Assembly (NCBI GenBank): GCA_049968235.1
Contig: JBMFRC010000009.1
Coordinates: forward strand, 1-64,000
Length of the DNA: 64,000 nucleotides
Direction: 5' to 3'
Source: Candidatus Hydrogenedens sp.
GTDB lineage: Bacteria > Hydrogenedentota > Hydrogenedentia > Hydrogenedentales > Hydrogenedentaceae
The position numbers were made by a program, and so were the translations under genes. The notes beneath the pieces are model-generated. The model was not told the DNA's origin. It searched no databases and saw only the letters and a list, made by a program, of their open reading frames with translations. Below, piece after piece: positions 4,176-21,659 of the stretch. How positions within the stretch are numbered: position 1 is the first letter of the stretch; every line of letters starts with the position of its first letter.

Positions 4176-4297
4176 AATTGTTGTATCTTTTAAATAGCAA
4201 TATATATGCCATAGTTATACATAAATTATAATCTATTGTTATTTAGTATCTTATGTAAAAAATATAAATTCTTAAAATTGGAAATATGATATTGTTT

Positions 4298-4333
4298 TCC
4301 CAATTTGGGAATGCCTTGTTTCCCATTTTGGGA
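4298..4333. promoter_or_regulatory. Two copies of an imperfect palindrome TCCCA-N3-TGGGA (4298-4310, 4321-4333), 23 bp centre to centre, upstream of the sigma54-EBP start; candidate operator
   Basis: Direct reading: tCCCAatTTGGGAa and tCCCAtTTTGGGAa. Lies in the non-coding-looking N-terminal extension of the six-frame ORF. Confidence 0.35.
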
Positions 4334-4393
4334 AAAATAAAAATTGATTTATCTATCTTTTTATTGTATTCTATTAATAAAGGATATTTAACC

Positions 4394-6277
4394 ATGTCAT
4401 ATAAAGAAAATGAAAAGAAAATAAGATTTATTATTACAGCGCGTTCAGGATATATAAAAGGGAATGCGTGGGTTATTCCTGAAGATGGGGAATTAAATAT
4501 AGGTCGAGACCCGACATGTTCGATAATTATTGATGACCCACTTATCTCAAGGCATCATTGCCAGTTGTTTATTAGGGGTGATGAACTAATTATTCGTGAT
4601 TTGGGGAGTAGTAATTCAACATTTGTAAATGGGCATCCTATAAAAGAGAAGGTTCTTCATTCTGGAGATGATATAGGCGTGGGTAGTATTGTTTTTTCTG
4701 TGGGGACGGTAATTCCAGAAGGTAGTGTTACGGGAGATGAGACCAAGAAACTTCGAGCAACACGTCCTATAAAGATTGGTGCTCCTGTGTTTATTGAAGG
4801 GTCTCCACAAAATTTATTTGAAACCGGTAATCCACGTACTGCGGAAGACCTTGCAGGACTTTTTTTGCTTGCCCGTCAGTTAAGTCAATTATTTAAGGTG
4901 GAAGATATTATTAACCATGTATTAAAAGTAGTTCAGGAACGATTCAATCCGAATATTTATTGTTTAATTCAATTTACTCAGGACCCTTCCCAAAACTTTA
5001 TTTATCCTAAAAACGCAACACAAGCCATCACTTCAAATCCACAATTAATACAACTATTATCTCAAATTCGTGAGATGCCACGTGGGGTGCTTTATCCTGA
5101 AAGATTTTATAAGAATGGAGAAACGGTTATTCGCAATACAGTAATTGCTCCTATAGCCCTTGGGAAAGAAGTGATTGGTGCGTTAGTAATGATGGCAGAT
5201 ACACCACATCGATTTTATGAAGAAGCGGATTTAGAATACTTGTTAGCAATGGCACATACATTGGCTCCTTACCTTCGTGCTGCAGAGCGTATGCAACAAT
5301 TAGAATGGGAGAATCAAAGGCTAATTTCCGGAGGTATAAATTTTGACCCATTAATAGGGGAAAGCAAAGCCATACAAAAAGTTCGTTCACTTGCACGTGA
5401 TTGTGCCCATTCAGACCTTTGTGTTTTAATTTTGGGAGAGACAGGCACCGGGAAAGAACTGGTTGCTCGTCTTATTCATAATCTTTCTTACCGTTCTCAA
5501 AAAAAATTGGTAGTTGTGAATTGTGCGGCTATTCCTGAGGAACTTTTTGAAAGTGAACTTTTCGGGCATGAAAGAGGTGCTTTTACAGGTGCTCATGCTA
5601 CCAAAATAGGACTGATGGAAGAAGCCAATAATGGAACATTGTTTCTTGATGAAATTGGTGACCTCAGTCTGAATCATCAGGCACGACTCCTCCGTGCTAT
5701 TGAAACAGGAACATTTAGACGCATCGGTGGAAGTTCTGATATTCGTGTGGATGTGCGAGTTTTGTGTGCTACGAACAAAGATTTACCCTCTGAAGTCAAT
5801 GCGGGTCGGTTTAGAAGAGATTTGTTTCATCGATTAAATGCTTTTGTAATATCAATTCCACCTTTACGCGAACGCATTGAGGATATTCCTTTACTTGCAG
5901 ATTATTTCCTGCAACAAGTTCGACGAAAGTATCCTGTTCGGGCTACCCGATTTTCATCGCAATCTTTGAAATGGCTTCAAAATCAACCGTGGCATGGCAA
6001 TGTGCGTGAATTGCGTAATCTTATTGAACGCGCATCCATCGTTGCTAAAAGTGAGGAAATACAACCCCAGGATTTGGTTTCGGAGTTAACTGTCTATATC
6101 CCCGAAAAATTTCCTACCCTGGAAGAACTTGAAAAAGCCCATATTATTAAAGCATTACAACAGGCACAGGGAAATGTCGTTTCTGCGGCAGAAATGTTAG
6201 GCATAGGTAAAAGCACCCTTTATCGCAAACTTGCAGAGTATCGAATTAATTCTTCTACCTATTTAAATATGAAATAA
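4394..6277 (+). CDS. Sigma54-dependent transcriptional activator with N-terminal FHA domain, GAF-like domain, AAA+ sigma54-interaction domain and C-terminal Fis-type HTH
   Basis: FHA signature (NIGRDPTCSIIIDD...SRHHCQLF...IIRDLGSSNSTFVNG). Walker A GETGTGKE. GAFTGA motif. ESELFGHERGAFTGA. C-terminal HTH (QGNVVSAAEMLGIGKSTLYRKL). Start chosen at ATG 4394 (RBS AAAGGA 9 nt upstream); ORF-track codons 4286-4393 look non-coding. Confidence 0.85.
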   Translation: MSYKENEKKIRFIITARSGYIKGNAWVIPEDGELNIGRDPTCSIIIDDPLISRHHCQLFIRGDELIIRDLGSSNSTFVNGHPIKEKVLHSGDDIGVGSIVFSVGTVIPEGSVTGDETKKLRATRPIKIGAPVFIEGSPQNLFETGNPRTAEDLAGLFLLARQLSQLFKVEDIINHVLKVVQERFNPNIYCLIQFTQDPSQNFIYPKNATQAITSNPQLIQLLSQIREMPRGVLYPERFYKNGETVIRNTVIAPIALGKEVIGALVMMADTPHRFYEEADLEYLLAMAHTLAPYLRAAERMQQLEWENQRLISGGINFDPLIGESKAIQKVRSLARDCAHSDLCVLILGETGTGKELVARLIHNLSYRSQKKLVVVNCAAIPEELFESELFGHERGAFTGAHATKIGLMEEANNGTLFLDEIGDLSLNHQARLLRAIETGTFRRIGGSSDIRVDVRVLCATNKDLPSEVNAGRFRRDLFHRLNAFVISIPPLRERIEDIPLLADYFLQQVRRKYPVRATRFSSQSLKWLQNQPWHGNVRELRNLIERASIVAKSEEIQPQDLVSELTVYIPEKFPTLEELEKAHIIKALQQAQGNVVSAAEMLGIGKSTLYRKLAEYRINSSTYLNMK

Positions 6278-6573
6278 ATAAGCCCTGCAACTTGATGCCT
6301 GACAGTTCCCGATTAATGGTAAATGGTGAAAGTGTTTACTTGTTATTTTTAGTTAATTTTTATAAATTAAATAAAAAGGTGTTATGTCAGAGATATTATA
6401 GAATAATGATTATATTATCTGAAATATTGCTATCGTGAATTATCCCATTCTACCGGCGGATTATAGGTTTGGTCATTCTCATATTCGTTTTTAAAAAAAC
6501 AGTCTTATAGAAAGGGAAGGGGAATTTATGATATTCTATTGTAAAATAATGAGATATGAATGAGGAAAATGGC

Positions 6574-6876
6574 ATGTCTAAAAAAAAAATTAGTCGAGAT
6601 GAAATATATCATATTGCGGATTTAGCATATTTGTATCTTGACAATGAACAAGCAGATAGACTGGCTTCTGATTTGTCGGAAATAATAGATTATGTGGAGA
6701 AACTAAATGAACTATCCATAGAAGATGTAGAACCTATGATGCATGCAGTTCCGATGGAAAATATTTTAAGGGAAGATGATGTCCACATAACCATAACAAG
6801 GGAAGATGCTTTGCGTTGTGCTCCTCTACATGATGGCGAATATTTTTTGGTTCCGAAAATTTTGGAGGTGGATTAA
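6574..6876 (+). CDS. gatC: Asp-tRNA(Asn)/Glu-tRNA(Gln) amidotransferase subunit C
   Basis: GatC-like sequence (ISRDEIYHIADLAYLYLDNEQADRLASDLSEIIDYVEKL). Directly precedes gatA. RBS GAGGAAAA before ATG 6574. Confidence 0.85.
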   Translation: MSKKKISRDEIYHIADLAYLYLDNEQADRLASDLSEIIDYVEKLNELSIEDVEPMMHAVPMENILREDDVHITITREDALRCAPLHDGEYFLVPKILEVD

Positions 6877-6877
6877 A

Positions 6878-8356
6878 ATGTCTGAACATTGGTGGCAAAA
6901 AAGTGCTTCTGAAATAAGTGCATATGTAAGGAATAAAGAAGTATCACCGGTTGATGTTGTTCAAAGTTTTCTTGAGAGAATTCAACAGGTGGATAATAAA
7001 ATAGATGCCTTTACGCAGGTCTGGAGCGAGTATGCTATTCAACAAGCAAGAGCATTGGAAGAGAAAATCGTAAAGGATGGAGATTCTGTGGGACCCCTTG
7101 CGGGAGTGCCCGTGTCTATTAAGGAAGTAATTTGCACAAAGGAGGGGTTTACTACATGTGCTTCTAAAATTCTTGCGGGCTATCGTAGTCCTTATGATGC
7201 AACCGTTGTTGAGAAACTTTATAATGCGGATGCCATTTTGATTGGCAAGGTCAATATGGATGAGTTTGCCATGGGCTCATCTACGGAAAATAGTTCCATA
7301 AAATTAACAAGAAATCCATGGAATCTGGAATGTGTCCCCGGTGGATCTAGTGGAGGTTCTGCTGCGTCAGTGTCTGCGGAAGAGTGTGTTATATCATTAG
7401 GAAGTGATACCGGTGGTTCTATTCGCCAACCTGCATCTTTCTGTGGTTGTGTTGGATTAAAACCGACTTATGGGAGGGTATCCCGTTATGGTTTGGTAGC
7501 ATTTGCTTCTTCTTTAGACCAGATAGGTCCTTTAAGTAAAAATGTTATGGATAGTGCAATAACACTATCTATAATTGGTGGAAAAGACGAGCGAGATACT
7601 ACATCGGTTAATTTGCCTTTAACTGATTATGCTGAAAAAATTAAAAGAGGGATGGATAAAGTTTCGTTTCGAATTGGATTGCCTAAAGAATATTTTACAG
7701 AAGATTTAAACAAAGAGGTGAAAGACCTTATTATGGGTGCGGTGAAGGACCTTGAAAAACAGGGAGCGGAAATTGTAGAGGTGTCTTTACCTCATACCGA
7801 ATTTGCAGTTGCTACTTATTATATAATTTGTACCGCGGAAGCGAGTGCAAATTTAGCCCGTTTTGATGGGGTTCGCTATGGTTTCCGCCATACAGATTCA
7901 AAAAACATTATTGATATGTATAAACGAACCCGTAGTGAAGGATTTGGTCCCGAGGTTCAACGGCGGATATTGTTAGGAACTTATGTGTTGTCCAGTGGTT
8001 ATTATGATGCCTATTACTTAAAAGCCCAGAAGGTGCGTAAATTAATTACGCAGGATTTTGAGAAAGCATTTCAAAAATGTGATGTGATTATAGGACCCAC
8101 TTCACCTACCCCAGCTTTCCGTTTTGGTGAAAAGATACAAAATCCGTTAGAGATGTATTTGAGTGATATTTATACCATATCGGTAAATTTATCCGCATTG
8201 CCTGCAATATCTGTTCCGTGTGGGTTAACGCAAAGTGGTTTGCCTGTAGGTTTGCAATTTATTGGCAAACATTTTGATGAAGAATATCTATTACAGGTAG
8301 CGCATTTGTATGAAGTGAACAGAAGTCAAAAACTGGGAACGCCACCTTTAGAATAA
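6878..8356 (+). CDS. gatA: Glutamyl-tRNA(Gln) amidotransferase subunit A (amidase signature family)
   Basis: Amidase signature (GGSSGGSAASVSAEECVISLGSDTGGSIRQPASFCG). Start MSEHWW at 6878, overlapping the gatC stop. Confidence 0.9.
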   Translation: MSEHWWQKSASEISAYVRNKEVSPVDVVQSFLERIQQVDNKIDAFTQVWSEYAIQQARALEEKIVKDGDSVGPLAGVPVSIKEVICTKEGFTTCASKILAGYRSPYDATVVEKLYNADAILIGKVNMDEFAMGSSTENSSIKLTRNPWNLECVPGGSSGGSAASVSAEECVISLGSDTGGSIRQPASFCGCVGLKPTYGRVSRYGLVAFASSLDQIGPLSKNVMDSAITLSIIGGKDERDTTSVNLPLTDYAEKIKRGMDKVSFRIGLPKEYFTEDLNKEVKDLIMGAVKDLEKQGAEIVEVSLPHTEFAVATYYIICTAEASANLARFDGVRYGFRHTDSKNIIDMYKRTRSEGFGPEVQRRILLGTYVLSSGYYDAYYLKAQKVRKLITQDFEKAFQKCDVIIGPTSPTPAFRFGEKIQNPLEMYLSDIYTISVNLSALPAISVPCGLTQSGLPVGLQFIGKHFDEEYLLQVAHLYEVNRSQKLGTPPLE

Positions 8357-10256: not shown

Positions 10257-11099
10257 ATGTCGGATTCTTCCTATGCTCCAGACCGTTCACAGTTATATCA
10301 TATTCGACTTGTGAAAATTTTAGGACAGGGAGGAACGGGAATTGTATATCAAGGAATTGATACCAAGAAAGGAAATGCGGTTGCAGTAAAATTATTCCGT
10401 GAGAATTTTTTCAGGAATAGACTGCATCTTATGGACCTTGTCCAGAATGTTAAGAAGTTTAAAAAACTGAAACACCAAAATCTTGTTCAGATATTTGATT
10501 TTATTGATGGGGATGAAGGTCGGTGCATGTTAATGGAGTTCGTAGATGGACCTAACCTCCGATGGTATCTTACAAATCGTCCCTGGAATTTGCAAGAACG
10601 AGTAAATATTATAATTCAAATTTGTATTGGTTTACAGTTTCTTCACGATAATGGTTTTGTCCATCATGATTTTAAACCTGCGAATGTATTATTTACACGG
10701 AGAGGTATTGTTAAGATTGCGGACTACTCTTTGTTCGGGAATAATTTTATATTGGAATTACTGGACCGAAGTGTCAGTCAGCAAATTACACCTATGTTTG
10801 TTGCTCCGGAAGTGATTCGCGGGGAAAGGGTAACTCCTAAATCAGATTTATATTCTCTGGGTGTTACAATGTATATGATGTTTACAGAAAAATTACCTTT
10901 TCCTGTAGATAATTTACAACAATTGTATCATTGCCATTTGAATTTATTGCCTGAACACCCAACAAATGTAAATCCCAAATGTCCATTTGCGTTAGGTAAT
11001 GTAATTATGAAACTCCTCTCTAAAAAACCAGAAAACCGTTATCGTGATTGTGATGAATTACGAATTGCTTTGTCTAATGTAACTCAAAGTAGAATTTAA
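10257..11099 (+). CDS. Minimal Ser/Thr protein kinase (kinase domain only) with variant catalytic motifs (HHD for HRD; DYS for DFG)
   Basis: G-loop GQGGTGIVY, VAVK lysine, HHDFKPANVL catalytic loop, IADYSLFG, APE (VAPEV). No sensor or TM domains. Confidence 0.75.
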   Translation: MSDSSYAPDRSQLYHIRLVKILGQGGTGIVYQGIDTKKGNAVAVKLFRENFFRNRLHLMDLVQNVKKFKKLKHQNLVQIFDFIDGDEGRCMLMEFVDGPNLRWYLTNRPWNLQERVNIIIQICIGLQFLHDNGFVHHDFKPANVLFTRRGIVKIADYSLFGNNFILELLDRSVSQQITPMFVAPEVIRGERVTPKSDLYSLGVTMYMMFTEKLPFPVDNLQQLYHCHLNLLPEHPTNVNPKCPFALGNVIMKLLSKKPENRYRDCDELRIALSNVTQSRI

Positions 11100-11321
11100 T
11101 TAGACCCCTGTAATACCCCCTGTAGTTGTTCCTGTGTCTACATTTGTATTTGTATCTGTTGTTTCTTCGGTAGGTCCTGTTGCTTTCCAAGGTGCCTGTC
11201 TTGGTACAAGGAGAAGTCGGTCAATAATATCTGTTGTGGCTTGCAGTTTAATCTGGAAATTACTCAACTGCGCCAGCGCAGGTGTTATTGTAATCGGTGT
11301 AATATGTCTATCTTTTTTCAT
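11100..11321 (-). CDS. Small hypothetical protein (73 aa) with Thr/Gly-rich C-terminal tail; paralog of the adjacent 42-aa ORF
   Basis: ATG with RBS AAAGGA (8-nt spacer). Shares a P-A-x-x-Q-[VL]-S-N-F-Q ... T-D-x-I motif with the upstream 42-aa ORF. Tail TGPTEETTDTNTNVDTGTTTGGITGV. Its stop abuts the convergent kinase stop. Confidence 0.4.
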   Translation of the reverse strand: MKKDRHITPITITPALAQLSNFQIKLQATTDIIDRLLLVPRQAPWKATGPTEETTDTNTNVDTGTTTGGITGV

Positions 11322-11338
11322 ATATCCAATCCTTTTTA

Positions 11339-11467
11339 TTAGGATGTTTTTATAAAAACAAACTCAACAATTTGGTCTGTCAATCTGACTAAGAAATCTT
11401 TCCATGCCTGGAAATTGCTTACCTGCATCTTTGCAGGTCTTTTTGTTAAAACCTGAACATGTTTCAT
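11339..11467 (-). CDS. Small hypothetical protein (42 aa; below the ORF-track size cutoff)
   Basis: Minus-strand ATG at 11467 preceded by strong RBS AAAGGAG (10-nt spacer) and a sigma70-like promoter. Peptide MKHVQVLTKRPAKMQVSNFQAWKDFLVRLTDQIVEFVFIKTS. Followed 17 nt later by the 73-aa paralog. Confidence 0.4.
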   Translation of the reverse strand: MKHVQVLTKRPAKMQVSNFQAWKDFLVRLTDQIVEFVFIKTS

Positions 11468-11506
11468 TTTAAATTAACTCCTTTTTGTTTCAATAACAAT
11501 ACTAGT

Positions 11507-11536
11507 ATTTTTATCAAAATATTACAGAAATGTCAA
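11507..11536 (-). promoter_or_regulatory. Sigma70-type promoter (TTGACA-N17-TAAAAAT) on the minus strand, driving the two small ORFs
   Basis: Plus-strand tgtcaa at 11531-11536 and attttta at 11507-11513. 17-nt spacer. Confidence 0.5.
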
Positions 11537-11564: not shown

Positions 11565-13439
11565 CTATTCTATCAATTTTTCCCACTGCGAGTAAAATGA
11601 ATTAAGAAGTTCTTTTTTCGTTTTTAATTCATGACTGAGTGATTGAATTTTTTGAAAATTTTTCGGATTTATTTGAGAAAAGGAAAGTTCTAAATTTTCA
11701 ATTTCACTTTCAAGGTTTTCAATTTGTCTCTCAATATCTTCTATCTTTCGTTCTTTTTTTCTTTGTTCGCGCTTTATTTGTTTTGCTTCTTCAAAGGAGT
11801 TCGGCTTTTGTGCTTTAGAGATAAAAATTGTTTCTGTGTTTTCAACATTGTTTTTTTCTCGCCATAGATAGTGGGAATAATTTCCCCAGATAAGTTCTGT
11901 TTTCCCATCTTTTAATACAATGAGTCGCTCCACGATTTCGTCCAAAAGTTCACGGTCATGTGTTATGAGAATAATCGCACCATCAAAATTAAGCAGGGCA
12001 TTTTCTAAAGCCTCTCGAGAGGCAAGGTCCATGTGATTCGTTGGTTCATCTAAGAAAAGTAAGTTGGGCTTTTGTAGAATTAACTTGGCTAATGCAAGAC
12101 GGCTTTGTTCACCACCACTTAAATTTTTTACCTTTTTGAAAACATCGTCTCCCTGGAAAAGGAAAGCCCCTAAAAAAGAGCGAAGGGAAGTAGGTATTAC
12201 ATCCGGTCGGACAGATAATGCCTCCTGAAGTATTTCGTTTTCGGGATTTAAATTATTATGATGTTGGTCATAATAGGCAATTTTTACATTGTGTCCATAT
12301 CGAATAATGCCATGAGTTCCTTTATGATAACCTAATAAGTGTTTTAAAAGTGTTGTTTTTCCGGAACCATTAGGACCTATAATTCCCAATCGTTCTCCGT
12401 GATACAACTGGAATGACAAATCTTTATATAGAACATGATTATCATATTGCATACACAAATTTTCAGCGTAAACCACCAAAGAATTGCTTCGTTCTTCAGA
12501 TTCAAAGAAAAAGTTGAGTTTTGGATTATATTGTTGGGGTTCTTCTATTCGCACGATTTTGTTTAATTGTTTAATACGGCTTTGAACCTGTTTTGCACGT
12601 GTTTTTTTATAGCGAAATCGTTCAATCCATTCCTCTTGTTTTTTTAATTCTTTTTCCTGTTGTTTATACATATCCTGTTGTTTTTCATATTGCTGTTCTT
12701 TTATTTCTCGAAAACTTTGATAGGAGCCCGGATAGGAAGTAATTTTTCCGTTTTCAAGTTCAAGTATTCTTTGAGGAAAACGGGATAGCAATCTCTGGTC
12801 ATGGGAAATAATTACAATTGTTTTGGGGGATGATATGAGAAATTCTTCAAGATATTCTTTCCCTTCGATGTCGAGATAATTGTCGGGTTCGTCTAAGAGT
12901 AATACATCTGCATCTTGTAATAGGGACAAGACAAGAAGTAGCCTTGTTTGTTGCCCTCCACTGAGTTCGTGAAATTTTTTTGACCAGCTATCGTGCAGGA
13001 ATCCTAAACCAGAAAGCACTTTTTGGGTAAGGGAAGAGTAATGATAGCCTCCATGTACCTGATAATAGGATTGGAGTTTTGAATACTCATTGAGCCATTC
13101 CGTATTACCCTTAGAAATTTGAACTTCGATTTCCTTTAATTTCTTTTCGATTTCTTTCAATTCCTTGAAAGCAGTTTCTGCAATTTCAAGTAAGGTTAAA
13201 TCTGGAGGGAAATGAGGTATTTGTTCGAGATAAGAGATACGGATATTGCGTTGTCGTTCAATAATTCCTCGGTCAGGTTCTATTCGTTGAGTAATTAATT
13301 GAAAAATAGTTGTTTTCCCACAGCCATTTCTTCCTACAAGGGCTATATGCTCCCCTGCTTCTATCTGAAAATTTACTTCATCTAAAATGACCCTACCTGG
13401 GTATGCTTTGCAGATATTTTCAAAACGGATTAAACTCAT
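11565..13439 (-). CDS. ABC-F family ATPase (two ABC domains, no TMD, coiled-coil linker and C-terminal extension; Uup/YbiT-like)
   Basis: Two Walker A motifs (GRNGCGKTT; GPNGSGKTT), two LSGG signatures (LSGGQQ; LSGGEQ), charged linker and K/E-rich coiled-coil C-terminus. 4-nt start/stop overlap with the upstream GT2 gene. Confidence 0.85.
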   Translation of the reverse strand: MSLIRFENICKAYPGRVILDEVNFQIEAGEHIALVGRNGCGKTTIFQLITQRIEPDRGIIERQRNIRISYLEQIPHFPPDLTLLEIAETAFKELKEIEKKLKEIEVQISKGNTEWLNEYSKLQSYYQVHGGYHYSSLTQKVLSGLGFLHDSWSKKFHELSGGQQTRLLLVLSLLQDADVLLLDEPDNYLDIEGKEYLEEFLISSPKTIVIISHDQRLLSRFPQRILELENGKITSYPGSYQSFREIKEQQYEKQQDMYKQQEKELKKQEEWIERFRYKKTRAKQVQSRIKQLNKIVRIEEPQQYNPKLNFFFESEERSNSLVVYAENLCMQYDNHVLYKDLSFQLYHGERLGIIGPNGSGKTTLLKHLLGYHKGTHGIIRYGHNVKIAYYDQHHNNLNPENEILQEALSVRPDVIPTSLRSFLGAFLFQGDDVFKKVKNLSGGEQSRLALAKLILQKPNLLFLDEPTNHMDLASREALENALLNFDGAIILITHDRELLDEIVERLIVLKDGKTELIWGNYSHYLWREKNNVENTETIFISKAQKPNSFEEAKQIKREQRKKERKIEDIERQIENLESEIENLELSFSQINPKNFQKIQSLSHELKTKKELLNSFYSQWEKLIE

Positions 13440-14239
13440 GGAATATTTGTAGGTATATTAGATGTATCGGAATTGTTAGTGCTTTTTCTCTGCAAATCCC
13501 ACAGTTTTGCATACTTTAAAAATACCGAGAAAGCGGATAATCCACATAGGACAAGTCCATGATAGCCATCCAGAAAGCCGTGTCGTAGAATATACATTTT
13601 GATAAAGCGTGAAATAGGTCGAATTGTTAAATCAAACCAATGGGCTCGTTTTCCCTGTTCATAAGCATCTTCTGCTCCCCATGTTGTAAATCGATGGGCT
13701 GTTCTTAAAAATTCATCAAAATTGCGATAGGTATCATGATACATAACTTCATGAATATAACCTATGGGACCTTCTACAACAACATGACTGTGAACACGTT
13801 TCTTTTTATATTTCCCTTTTCGTGTTCGGAATAGTCGCAAATTATAATCTTTGTGCCATCCGCAGTGTTTAATGAGTTTTCCGAAGAAGTAAGACATTCT
13901 GCGAATATTGTAACCATCGAGACTGTTCGGATCTTTTATAATTTCCTGTATTTTTTTCACAAGTTCTGGGGAGACCCATTCATCCGCGTCTAAAACCAGA
14001 GTCCATTCCGTTGTTATTTGTGGGATTGCCCAATTGCGTTGGTCCGCTGCATTGGTATACTCATGAACAACCACATGATTTGTATATTGTTTTACCAATT
14101 CTTCAGACCCATCATTTGTTTTGGGGTCTACAACACAAAAAATATCATCTGCCCAGGATACACTTCCAAGACAGCGGGGAAGACGGTCTCCCGCGTTAGG
14201 AATTAATATTAAGACAGTGATGCCAGGTTTTATACTCAT
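13436..14239 (-). CDS. Family 2 glycosyltransferase (LPS-core WaaE/KdtX-like)
   Basis: GT-A motifs (VLILIPNAGDRL...; DxD LDADEW). Similarity pattern of LPS core GT2 enzymes. Confidence 0.75.
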   Translation of the reverse strand: MSIKPGITVLILIPNAGDRLPRCLGSVSWADDIFCVVDPKTNDGSEELVKQYTNHVVVHEYTNAADQRNWAIPQITTEWTLVLDADEWVSPELVKKIQEIIKDPNSLDGYNIRRMSYFFGKLIKHCGWHKDYNLRLFRTRKGKYKKKRVHSHVVVEGPIGYIHEVMYHDTYRNFDEFLRTAHRFTTWGAEDAYEQGKRAHWFDLTIRPISRFIKMYILRHGFLDGYHGLVLCGLSAFSVFLKYAKLWDLQRKSTNNSDTSNIPTNIP

Positions 14240-20546: not shown

Positions 20547-20741
20547 AAAAATATAATAGTTTACAGTAATATATTTTAATTATTTTGAGACCACAAGTTC
20601 TAATTGTAATATTTTGTAATAAACCTTATGTCAGTTTCAAACTTTGAGTGAAAAGGAACTTTTGATGAGTTAAGGTGTTTAGAAATAATGAAGTCTCAAA
20701 TAGAGACAATGAATATTAAAACCAATAGAAGGAGTAGCAAG

Positions 20742-21659
20742 ATGAAAGAGAAACTTGTATTAACACTGGTTGCCGGATTGTGTGTCGTTTTGATGGCACA
20801 ATGGGCTATGGCTCAACCGCCTGAACAACAAGGGCCTCCACCTCCGGGTGCTATGGATAAAAACAGACCCGGACCGCCTCCAGGGCCTCTACCAAATCGT
20901 CCCGCTATGGAAGATGTTTTTAAGCGAGCAGATAAAAATGCGGATGGTAATCTTTCATTAGAAGAATTTTTAGAAATGCATAAGAACCGTCCTCCACGAC
21001 CTCAGGGTCCGCCTCCGAAGGGTATGTCCCCCGATAGACCTCCGAAGATGGAAAAGGGAGATAGACCTTTCCGAGAAGGTGGTTTGCGTAAAGAAAGCGG
21101 CCCTCCCGAAGAAAAGCCCAATCGTCCTGAAAGACAGAGGATTTCTCCTGAAAAGATGAAAAAGCGGGCAGAAGAGGTTTTCAAAGAAGCAGATAAAGAT
21201 GGTGATGGTAAATTAACGCTGGATGAGTTTAAGTCAATCAGACCGCCCCGTGGACCCAAACCTCCTTTACCACCGGACAAACCTGTTCCACCTGAGGGGA
21301 GACAGAGACCCATGGGACAAAGGATAATAGAATTACTGAAAGAAGCGGATACGAATGGTGATGGAAAAGTATCCTTAGAAGAGTTAAAGGCAGTTCGTCC
21401 GCATATGACTGAAGAGCGATTCCAATTGATGGATACCAACAATGATGGTTTTATTACAAAGGAAGATGTCCATGATTGGGCGGAGCGTGCTCAGGAAAGG
21501 TTTAAAGAAGCGGATACGGACAATGATGGCAAACTTTCCCGTGAAGAAGTGAAAAAAATGTTCCCGAATATGAATGATGAGGTATTCAATCGAAAAGATG
21601 ATAATAAGGATGGTTTTCTAACCCTGGATGAACTGAAACCGAAATTTAGGGGAAACTAA
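20742..21659 (+). CDS. Secreted proline-rich calcium-binding protein with six EF-hand loops
   Basis: Signal peptide (MKEKLVLTLVAGLCVVLMAQWAMA). PPGP-rich region. Six DxDxDG-type loops (DKNADGNLSLEEF, DKDGDGKLTLDEF, DTNGDGKVSLEEL, DTNNDGFITKEDV, DTDNDGKLSREEV, DDNKDGFLTLDEL). RBS GAAGGAG before ATG 20742. Confidence 0.8.
   Translation: MKEKLVLTLVAGLCVVLMAQWAMAQPPEQQGPPPPGAMDKNRPGPPPGPLPNRPAMEDVFKRADKNADGNLSLEEFLEMHKNRPPRPQGPPPKGMSPDRPPKMEKGDRPFREGGLRKESGPPEEKPNRPERQRISPEKMKKRAEEVFKEADKDGDGKLTLDEFKSIRPPRGPKPPLPPDKPVPPEGRQRPMGQRIIELLKEADTNGDGKVSLEELKAVRPHMTEERFQLMDTNNDGFITKEDVHDWAERAQERFKEADTDNDGKLSREEVKKMFPNMNDEVFNRKDDNKDGFLTLDELKPKFRGN

What the first reader, a model, noticed from the sequence alone, without database searches (positions are those of the whole stretch)
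11100..11536. Self-contained two-gene unit of tiny paralogous proteins (42 aa and 73 aa) with consensus promoter and strong RBSs, next to an ABC-F/glycosyltransferase operon
A well-formed sigma70 promoter (TTGACA-N17-TAAAAAT) and an AAAGGAG RBS precede a 42-aa ORF; 17 nt later an AAAGGA RBS precedes a 73-aa ORF. The two peptides share an aligned ~30-residue region: P-A-x-x-Q-[VL]-S-N-F-Q ... T-D-x-I-[VI]-[DE]-x-[LV]-[LF]-[LI]. That similarity is unlikely by chance and suggests tandem duplication of a leader-like N-terminal region. The longer one has a Thr/Gly-rich low-complexity tail (TGPTEETTDTNTNVDTGTTTGGITGV), which is potentially O-glycosylatable. The unit sits immediately downstream of an ABC-F ATPase translationally coupled to GT2 and GT4 glycosyltransferases, so a glycosylated-peptide (glycocin/RiPP-like) or small regulatory-protein system is conceivable. 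The 42-aa ORF is below typical annotation cutoffs and would normally be missed.
Basis: partly seen in the sequence, partly recalled or inferred. Interest (0 to 1): 0.65.

Follow-up and report, generated by a model that had tools for sequence, protein, structure and literature searches.

The report
Conserved pair of tiny paralogous proteins
Two tiny neighbouring genes (42 and 73 codons) are real and related to each other, have their own strong promoter, and are kept as a pair throughout the uncultured phylum Hydrogenedentota; they form a protein family with no known relatives or function, and nothing supports the suggested glycosylated-peptide (RiPP) reading.

Summary
On the minus strand, A (42 aa, 11339-11467) and B (73 aa, 11100-11321) lie 17 nt apart behind TTGACA-N17-TGnTAAAAA and AAAGGAG/AAAGGA ribosome-binding sites. 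Both genes are real. The A-then-B pair was found in all ~45 related loci examined (25 Hydrogenedentota species genomes plus metagenome contigs, 35-69% GC), with pN/pS of 0.08 (A), 0.10 (B core) and 0.19 (B tail). They are paralogues (profile-profile E 1.8e-10). A perfect TTGACA-17-TGn promoter precedes A in 28 of 29 distinct loci.

Each protein is a conserved basic N-terminal arm with an invariant His, followed by one amphipathic helix. B adds RQxPWK and a disordered, lysine/arginine-free, mostly acidic Thr/Gly tail that usually ends in a hydrophobic residue. The helix N-cap residues co-vary between A and B without codon identity, which suggests the two proteins act together.

Nothing matches in Pfam, NCBIfam, PADLOC, PDB, phages, plasmids or the literature. 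The neighbours vary between lineages (ABC-F, glycosyltransferases, kinase, PEPCK, cydAB, SecA, Wzy_C). No maturase, peptidase or exporter is ever linked. ABC-F has no membrane domain, and some tails lack Ser/Thr. The RiPP/glycocin reading is therefore not supported.

Best reading: a new, phylum-specific, probably highly expressed two-subunit small-protein module. Its function is unknown.

The parts
11507..11536 (-). Promoter of the A-B unit: -35 TTGACA (11536-11531), a 17-nt spacer ending in TGa (TG at 11516-11515), and -10 TAAAAA(T) (11513-11507).
   Evidence: Sequence and consensus scan. The block is conserved in AT-rich relatives. TTGACA-N17 with an extended -10 is present in 28/29 distinct loci.
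11478..11484 (-). Shine-Dalgarno sequence AAAGGAG for gene A, 10 nt before the ATG.
   Evidence: GGAG-type sites lie upstream of A in all loci.
11339..11467 (-). Gene A: a 42-aa protein, MKHVQVLTKRPAKMQVSNFQAWKDFLVRLTDQIVEFVFIKTS. It has an N-terminal arm (MKH..[ILV][TS][KR]xP..Q) followed by one amphipathic helix (residues 15-41).
   Evidence: ORF. The family has 112 clusters. Alignments A2 and A3. pN/pS 0.077. AlphaFold2 predicts a helix at 15-41 with pLDDT about 95.
11330..11335 (-). Shine-Dalgarno sequence AAAGGA for gene B, 8 nt before the ATG.
11172..11321 (-). Gene B, conserved core (residues 1-50): an N-terminal arm with invariant His6, an SNFQ capping box, a helix at 19-38 (IKLQATTDIIDRLLL), then PRQAPWKATGP.
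   Evidence: Alignment A1. Profile search. AlphaFold2 helix at 19-38. pN/pS 0.098.
11100..11171 (-). Gene B, disordered tail (residues 51-73, TEETTDTNTNVDTGTTTGGITGV) plus the stop codon (11100-11102). The stop abuts the stop codon of the convergent kinase gene (11097-11099).
   Evidence: pLDDT below 50. Family-wide tail composition: T 27%, G 24%, D 10%, K+R 0.4%; the last residue is L/I/V/F in 88/106. pN/pS 0.19. No terminator found.

Best explanation
This is an independently transcribed, probably strongly expressed two-gene operon. It encodes two paralogous single-helix proteins of a previously undescribed family that is restricted to Hydrogenedentota; the window is closest to Candidatus Hydrogenedens terephthalaticus.

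Shown: both are real genes under strong purifying selection. They are always adjacent in the order A then B. They are paralogues. They keep a near-consensus sigma-70 promoter with an extended -10. They have no signal peptide, membrane segment or known domain.

Inferred: A and B act together as a parallel hetero-oligomer. Their helices pack in register, so the two helix N-caps and the two conserved basic N-terminal arms (H-x-[KR]-x-[ILV]-[ST]-[KR]-x-P-x2-[AS]-Q) lie side by side and form one composite binding surface for an unidentified partner. That partner may be a polyanion such as nucleic acid or the ribosome, or another protein. B adds a flexible tail that is free of positive charge, usually acidic and rich in Thr/Gly, and ends in a hydrophobic residue. 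The tail would act as a tethered element, either folding back on the basic core or docking elsewhere, in the manner of the acidic tails of SSB or the ribosomal stalk proteins. In lineages where the tail is rich in Thr it could additionally be phosphorylated or glycosylated. The role is most likely a vertically inherited housekeeping or structural one, not a secreted natural product.
For: - **Real genes.** The pair is present in all fetched loci across 35-69% GC. pN/pS is 0.077 for A, 0.098 for the B core and 0.19 for the B tail.
- **Paralogy.**
- **Autonomy and expression signals.** A perfect TTGACA-N17-TGn promoter is present in 28/29 distinct loci, and Shine-Dalgarno sites precede both genes. 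The neighbours change while the pair stays.
- **Single copy.** One locus per species genome and one per window.
- **Architecture.** AlphaFold2 predicts one helix in each protein plus coil arms, and a disordered tail in B.
- **Acting together.** The N1 residue of the helix capping box co-varies between A and B: N/N in 26 pairs; G/G, P/P and A/P in one locus each; S/S in three. The next residue changes F to L in B in all six of those divergent loci and in A in five of them (L040 A keeps F). Codons for the shared residues differ, so gene conversion is not the cause.
- **Tail properties.** The core carries +4.4 and the tail -3.75 on average. K/R is absent from 106/107 tails. The terminal residue is hydrophobic in 83%.
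- **Restricted and undescribed.** Only 56 hits among 1.84 billion representative proteins; 55 are small proteins with the same architecture and one is a spurious eukaryotic coiled-coil repeat. All named members but one come from Hydrogenedentota MAGs. Nothing was found in Pfam, NCBIfam, PADLOC, PDB, plasmids, phages, IMG/VR or the literature.
Against: - No direct evidence of expression, abundance, interaction or location.
- The hetero-oligomer rests on co-variation at two positions, drawn from a modest number of partly related lineages, and on obligate co-occurrence. A shared third partner would give the same signal. No complex model could be run.
- The binding partner is a guess: context gives no stable clue.
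- The B model has only moderate confidence (mean pLDDT 62).
- Three members have almost no tail, so the tail is not essential everywhere.
- Three distant members carry a CxxxxxC right after the core, which could hint at an oxidising, extracytoplasmic location.
Confidence: 0.5

Rival explanations
1. B, and perhaps A, is a ribosomally made precursor peptide with a conserved leader and a variable core. It would be O-glycosylated by the neighbouring GT2/GT4 enzymes and exported, making it a glycocin or RiPP-like product.
For: B has a conserved N-terminal region of about 50 residues and a C-terminal part that varies strongly between lineages. GT4-GT4-GT2 genes lie upstream in many lineages, including deep ones. 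Other contexts carry Wzy_C-domain proteins. Three distant members have a CxxxxxC motif.
Against: - No RiPP maturase, RRE protein, leader peptidase or peptidase-containing ABC exporter is linked in any context.
- ABC-F has no membrane domain and matches EttA/Uup-type translation factors.
- The GT2 is 267 aa and scores 25 bits on the SunS model against a cutoff of 350.
- There is no Cys and no double-glycine site.
- A has no variable part at all.
- The unit is single-copy, phylum-wide and vertically inherited.
- The tail is under purifying selection, not diversifying (pN/pS 0.19).
- 15/104 tails have at most one Ser/Thr, and three members have almost no tail.
- The GT genes are absent from the neighbourhood in about half of the species.
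Confidence: 0.06
2. A-B is the substrate or regulatory partner of the convergent 280-aa Hanks-type Ser/Thr kinase. Phosphorylation of the Thr-rich tail, or of the conserved Ser/Thr in the N-terminal arm, would switch the module.
For: The kinase gene is convergent and directly adjacent in 13 of 25 species loci and in deep-branching relatives. It retains the catalytic motifs VAVK, HHDFKPAN and APE, read directly from the translation. Other contexts place Kdo/WaaP/RIO-type kinase-fold genes next to the unit. The [ST] residue in the arm is conserved in nearly every member of both families shown. An FHA-domain sigma-54 activator lies 5 kb away in the window.
Against: Kinase adjacency is lost in 11 of 25 species, so it may be inherited synteny with the gatCAB-rsfS operon. 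L031 keeps the kinase although its tail has no Ser/Thr. The FHA gene is near the unit only in the closest relatives. There are no phosphorylation data.
Confidence: 0.15
3. B's Thr/Asp/Gly tail is glycosylated in the cytoplasm by the adjacent GT4-GT4-GT2 enzymes, as SdgA/SdgB modify Ser-Asp repeats or GtfA/B modify serine-rich repeat adhesins. No RiPP-type processing would be involved.
For: Thr-Asp and Thr-Gly repeats resemble SD repeats. Two tandem GT4 genes plus a GT2 lie on the same strand upstream, and they stay nearby even when the intervening gene differs: ABC-F, PEPCK or none (L005, L021, L027-30). The GT2 is unusually conserved, at 69-90% identity across the phylum.
Against: The GT4 hits to SdgA/B are generic (42-66 bits against a cutoff of 800), and their best matches are polysaccharide GTs. 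The GTs are missing from the locus in many species. Many tails have few or no Ser/Thr.
Confidence: 0.1
4. The region is non-coding (the 3' UTR of the kinase mRNA), or the plus-strand ORF 11134-11355 is the real gene.
For: An equally long 73-aa ORF exists on the plus strand. The kinase gene ends at 11099 with no terminator.
Against: The amino-acid sequences of the minus-strand frames are conserved across genomes of 35-69% GC, and differences between close relatives are mostly synonymous. The antisense stop-free stretch varies widely in length between relatives (46-103 aa) and is much shorter in several of them. No Rfam family matches.
Confidence: 0.01

Closest known systems
RiPP precursor peptides with long conserved leaders and variable cores (for example Nif11/NHLP-type precursors such as the prochlorosins)
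   Same: A small gene product with a conserved N-terminal part of about 50 residues followed by a C-terminal part that differs strongly between lineages.
   Different: No homology to Nif11/NHLP leaders. No linked or recurrent modifying enzyme, protease or exporter. One copy per genome rather than many. The variable part is low-complexity and under purifying selection. The partner protein A has no variable part.
Glycocins (sublancin SunA with the SunS glycosyltransferase, SunT exporter and Bdb oxidoreductases)
   Same: A small peptide encoded near a family-2 glycosyltransferase and an ABC-type ATPase.
   Different: There is no Cys-stabilised helical hairpin. The GT2 is half the size of SunS and far below its model cutoff. 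The ABC protein is a soluble ABC-F, not a peptidase-containing exporter. No thiol-disulfide oxidoreductases are present.
Acidic C-terminal tails ending in a hydrophobic residue: bacterial SSB (..DDDIPF), phage T7 gp2.5, and the ribosomal stalk P1/P2 heterodimer. This comparison rests on my own knowledge.
   Same: A basic or oligomerising N-terminal part, a Gly-rich disordered linker, and an acidic tip with a hydrophobic last residue. Some B tails even end in ..DIPTF or ..IPTF. P1/P2 are also a pair of small paralogues that dimerise through N-terminal helices.
   Different: No sequence or fold relationship. The core is a single helix, not an OB fold or a stalk domain. The tail tip is not conserved as a motif, and only B carries a tail. 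The resemblance is one of organisation only and has not been tested.
Small paralogous single-helix subunit pairs that each contribute one His (cytochrome b559 PsbE/PsbF; light-harvesting alpha/beta peptides). This comparison rests on my own knowledge.
   Same: Two tandem paralogous genes of about 40 and about 75 codons, each product having one helix and one invariant His.
   Different: The helices of A and B are amphipathic with charged residues, not membrane-spanning. The His lies in the N-terminal arm, outside the helix. There is no evidence of a cofactor.

Membership tests
RiPP biosynthetic gene cluster | Precursor peptide with a leader and a core region. | tested here: inconclusive
   B has a conserved N-terminal part and a variable tail. 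However, the tail is low-complexity, under purifying selection and nearly absent in three members. A is conserved to its C-terminus.
RiPP biosynthetic gene cluster | A modifying enzyme (YcaO, LanB/C/M/KC, radical SAM, RRE-containing protein and similar) encoded with the precursor. | tested here: not met
   None lies next to the unit in any context. A radical SAM/SPASM gene about 5.5 kb away in L037 occurs in that context only.
RiPP biosynthetic gene cluster | Leader peptidase and/or dedicated exporter. | tested here: not met
   The only ABC protein is an ABC-F (ABC_tran, ABC_tran_Xtn and ABC_tran_CTD domains; EttA/Uup-type models) with no membrane or C39 domain. In other lineages it is replaced by PEPCK or is absent.
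Glycocin (SunA/SunS type) | SunS-family peptide glycosyltransferase. | tested here: not met
   GT2 (13436-14239) scores 25.4 bits on TIGR04195 against a cutoff of 350. It is 267 aa, whereas the model covers about 421.
Glycocin (SunA/SunS type) | Helix-loop-helix peptide held by two nested disulfides, with the glycosylated Cys/Ser/Thr in the loop. | tested here: not met
   A and B in the window contain no Cys. Each protein is predicted to have a single helix.
Class IIb two-peptide bacteriocins | Double-glycine leader, GxxxG helix-packing motifs, and adjacent immunity and ABC-exporter genes. | tested here: not met
   There is no GG cleavage motif after a short leader, no GxxxG in the helices and no exporter or immunity gene. 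The family is absent from plasmids and phages.
Known protein families and structures (Pfam, NCBIfam, PADLOC, PDB) | Significant profile match. | tested here: not met
   There were no hits for the window proteins. Scans of 83 A-family and 36 B-family members gave only scattered hits below threshold. The best PDB profile search E-value was 1.2 for A, and B had no hit.
Ribbon-helix-helix DNA-binding proteins (considered because the N-terminal arm alternates polar and hydrophobic residues) | An N-terminal strand followed by two helices separated by a turn, and a match to RHH profiles. | tested here: not met
   AlphaFold2 gives one uninterrupted helix at 15-41 with pLDDT about 95. No RHH family appeared among the weak Pfam hits.
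Hanks-kinase substrate | Phosphorylation by the adjacent kinase. | not testable with these tools
   Only gene adjacency could be assessed: it holds in 13/25 species.

The most novel reading that the evidence does not exclude
A-B is a phylum-specific, abundant heterodimeric small-protein machine of a kind not yet described. Two parallel helices would present a pair of conserved His/Thr-containing basic arms to a core cellular target such as the nucleoid, the ribosome or the envelope-synthesis machinery. B's acidic, hydrophobic-tipped tail would act as a built-in competitor or recruiter. The module might be tuned by the neighbouring Ser/Thr kinase or glycosyltransferases in the lineages that keep them.
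Probability: 0.3. Interest if true: 0.65.

Novelty: categorically new. Interest (0 to 1): 0.5.

Why it matters
Small proteins under 50-80 residues are the least charted part of bacterial proteomes, and Hydrogenedentota has no cultured model organism. Here a 42-aa and a 73-aa gene are kept as a pair behind an almost invariant consensus promoter in every lineage examined of an entire phylum. They are under strong purifying selection and resemble nothing known. That pattern suggests a core, probably abundant, cellular component that has been overlooked. The work also removes a tempting misreading: a small peptide next to 'ABC' and 'GT' genes here is not a natural-product cluster. If the heterodimer with a tethered acidic tail is confirmed, it would add a compact new architecture to the catalogue of small-protein modules and provide a clean phylum marker. 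The novelty label refers to the family matching no known kind. The function is unknown, so the interest score stays moderate.

Tried and rejected
- **Known families.** Pfam, NCBIfam and PADLOC scans of A and B gave nothing, including scans of all family members at E <= 10.
- **Solved structures.** PDB sequence-profile searches gave nothing.
- **Fold search.** Not run. Both models are single helices, so any match would be meaningless.
- **Structured RNA.** Rfam found nothing in the window region or in 11 related loci. The 5' UTR length ranges from about 32 to about 245 nt, so no conserved leader RNA is expected.
- **Mobile elements.** No matches in plasmids, phages or IMG/VR.
- **Literature.** Searches for the family's sequence motifs returned 0 papers. 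A search on the phylum name listed nothing relevant.
- **More distant loci.** The third attempt returned 4 loci, all with the A-B pair.
- **A-family structure with locus-derived sequences.** It was redone with database proteins.
- **P0089.** This 1316-aa hit to the B profile is a eukaryotic coiled-coil repeat and is spurious.
- **ATCUN metal site (NH2-X-X-His).** Considered because A always starts MKH. Rejected as a general explanation because the His of B sits at positions 3-7 from the N-terminus while keeping a fixed distance to the downstream motif.
- **Ribbon-helix-helix fold.** Rejected; see the membership test.
- **Readthrough or frameshift fusing A to B.** Rejected because the A-B gap (11-112 nt) has no consistent phase.
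- **A as a regulatory leader peptide (uORF) for B.** Rejected because A is conserved along its whole length, with pN/pS 0.08 and a confidently predicted helix.
- **Gene conversion as the cause of A/B co-variation.** Rejected because the codons differ.
- **Terminator after B in the window.** None found.

Full report
**What is in the sequence**

On the minus strand there are two ATG-initiated ORFs. A runs 11339-11467 (42 aa) and B runs 11100-11321 (73 aa), 17 nt apart. Upstream lies TTGACA (11536-11531), a 17-nt spacer that ends in TGa, and TAAAAA(T) (11513-11507). This is a -35 box with an extended -10 box. AAAGGAG precedes A and AAAGGA precedes B. In this AT-rich DNA, promoter-like matches are frequent (11 found against 7.1 expected), so the single sequence proves little and comparison had to decide.

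Upstream on the same strand are an ABC-F ATPase (11565-13439), a GT2 whose stop overlaps the ABC-F start, and two GT4 genes. Downstream, convergent and abutting the stop codon of B, is a 280-aa Hanks-type Ser/Thr kinase. That kinase closes a gatC-gatA-gatB-rsfS-kinase operon.

**Are the genes real and related?**

- B has 35 close database relatives of 68-86 aa. All the named ones come from Candidatus Hydrogenedens or Hydrogenedentes MAGs.
- A scan of one genome per GTDB species returned 25 loci, most from MAGs labelled Hydrogenedentota and the remainder carrying generic or other labels. The best locus, 94% identical, is Ca. Hydrogenedens terephthalaticus.
- In every locus fetched (the 25 species, contigs found through database proteins, and 4 metagenome contigs) an A homologue lies 11-112 nt upstream of a B homologue. 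The genomes range from 35% to 69% GC.
- A profile search with A found 112 clusters of proteins, mostly 41-50 aa.
- Over 12 pairs of close relatives, pN/pS is 0.077 for A, 0.098 for the B core and 0.19 for the B tail. The alternative plus-strand ORF is not conserved.
- The two families are related. BLASTP gives E 2e-5. hhalign gives 96.9% probability and E 1.8e-10. In a six-frame scan of the whole window, each family HMM finds only its own gene and the other gene.

**Promoter**

The block aaaaacTTGACA...TTTTGnTAAAAAT is conserved among AT-rich relatives even where the flanks and the upstream gene differ. A perfect TTGACA, a 17-nt spacer and a TGn extended -10 are found 68-281 nt upstream of A in 28 of 29 distinct loci. 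The unit therefore carries its own near-consensus promoter throughout the phylum. Strong expression is an inference from this. No Rfam family matches the leader, and the leader length is variable.

**Anatomy**

Both proteins begin with a shared motif: M-K-(0-3 residues)-H-x-[KR]-x-[ILV]-[ST]-[KR]-x-P-x2-[AS]-Q, then a capping box [ST]-N-F-[QE]. The His is invariant; it is the only invariant column in a 62-member alignment of diverse B proteins.

AlphaFold2 predicts a coil arm and one helix in each protein: residues 15-41 in A (pLDDT about 95) and 19-38 in B. The B tail has pLDDT below 50. After its helix, B has the near-invariant RQxPWK and a P-x-G boundary.

The tail of B is 3-51 residues long. 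Its composition is 27% Thr, 24% Gly, 10% Asp and 0.4% Lys+Arg. Its mean charge is -3.75 against +4.4 for the core. The last residue is L, I, V or F in 88 of 106 members. Fifteen of 104 long tails have at most one Ser/Thr, and three members have almost no tail.

**Evidence that A and B work together**

Besides obligate adjacency, the capping-box residue co-varies between A and B. It is N/N in 26 pairs, G/G in L031, S/S in L032, L040 and L042, P/P in L043 and A/P in L033. The following residue changes from F to L in B in all six of these loci and in A in five of them; L040 A keeps F. The codons for the shared residues mostly differ, so recent gene conversion does not explain the pattern. This fits helices packed in parallel and in register with their N-caps together. 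It would also fit both arms binding equivalent sites on one shared partner.

**Context**

The arrangement GT4-GT4-GT2-ABC-F, then A-B, then convergent kinase-rsfS-gatBAC is found in the window's clade and in deep-branching relatives. Elsewhere it changes:

- ABC-F is replaced by PEPCK or is missing.
- In 11 of 25 species the kinase/gat operon is not downstream.
- Other neighbours include Kdo/WaaP-type kinases with a TPR/Wzy_C protein, cydAB and a T2SS ATPase, GH28 and SecA.
- One contig, binned as Phycisphaerae, carries three tandem paralogues.

No modifying enzyme, peptidase or exporter recurs. Envelope-glycan genes and kinase-fold genes do recur in different forms. This is suggestive but not decisive.

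**Interpretation**

The RiPP/glycocin reading fails its defining tests, as set out in the membership table. The best-supported account is a new, phylum-restricted, autonomously and probably strongly expressed two-subunit small-protein module that is most likely cytoplasmic. Paired basic arms would form a binding surface, and B's flexible tail, free of positive charge and tipped with a hydrophobic residue, would act as a tethered element. This organisation is reminiscent of SSB or ribosomal stalk-protein tails. That comparison rests on my own knowledge and is not homology. Phosphorylation by the neighbouring kinase or glycosylation by the neighbouring GTs remain possible lineage-specific additions. 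The physiological function is unknown.

**Known or new**

The profile search over 1.84 billion representative proteins found 56 hits. Fifty-five are small proteins with the same architecture and one is spurious. There are no matches in Pfam, NCBIfam, PADLOC, PDB, plasmids, phages, IMG/VR or the searched literature. Database entries are all labelled 'hypothetical protein'. As a family it belongs to no known kind. I score interest as moderate (0.5) because there is still no functional evidence.

Noticed in passing
window 11097-11102: The stop codons of the convergent kinase gene (ends 11099) and of B (ends 11100) abut with no intergenic base, and no terminator is detectable on either strand. Transcripts from the strong A-B promoter probably run antisense into the 3' end of the kinase gene. 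GC-rich relatives instead have a gap of about 75 nt with a clear hairpin terminator (L001).
   Followed up: partly
window 4286-6277 (+): A sigma-54 enhancer-binding protein with an N-terminal FHA domain and a weak, sub-threshold GAF match lies just upstream of gatCAB-rsfS-kinase. This puts a phosphothreonine-reading domain and a Hanks kinase in one neighbourhood. It is near the A-B unit only in the closest relatives.
   Followed up: partly
window 13436-14239 (-): The 267-aa GT2 is unusually conserved across the phylum, at 69-90% identity. That is comparable to the kinase and much higher than ABC-F (41-45% in distant lineages). It has only weak generic family matches. Its substrate is unknown.
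   Followed up: no
window 20688-21659 (+): A 323-aa protein with five EF-hand calcium-binding motifs and a weak dockerin-like match, which is uncommon in bacteria.
   Followed up: no
window 6556-6876 and 6806-8356 (+): The longest ORFs of gatC and gatA overlap by 71 nt. The true gatA start is probably a downstream start codon.
   Followed up: no
L044 1978-2714: A 3.2-kb contig binned as Phycisphaerae, with PEPCK upstream as in several Hydrogenedentota loci, carries three tandem members of the family. The A-like member has a poly-Ser tail (GSDGSSSSSSSSSSGTTTN). This shows lineage-specific expansion and shows that tails are not confined to B. The contig may be mis-binned.
   Followed up: partly
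P0058, P0078, P0081 (distant B homologues): Three distant members carry a CxxxxxC motif immediately after the conserved WK, followed by a Gly-rich tail. This could be a disulfide loop or a metal site. It is the only hint of a non-cytoplasmic location.
   Followed up: no
L035 61-864, L039 5044-6758, L014: In lineages that lack the Hanks kinase next to A-B, one or two Kdo/WaaP/RIO-type kinase-fold genes sit divergently upstream of the unit or of ABC-F-A-B. A recurrent kinase-fold neighbour from two different families may be meaningful.
   Followed up: partly
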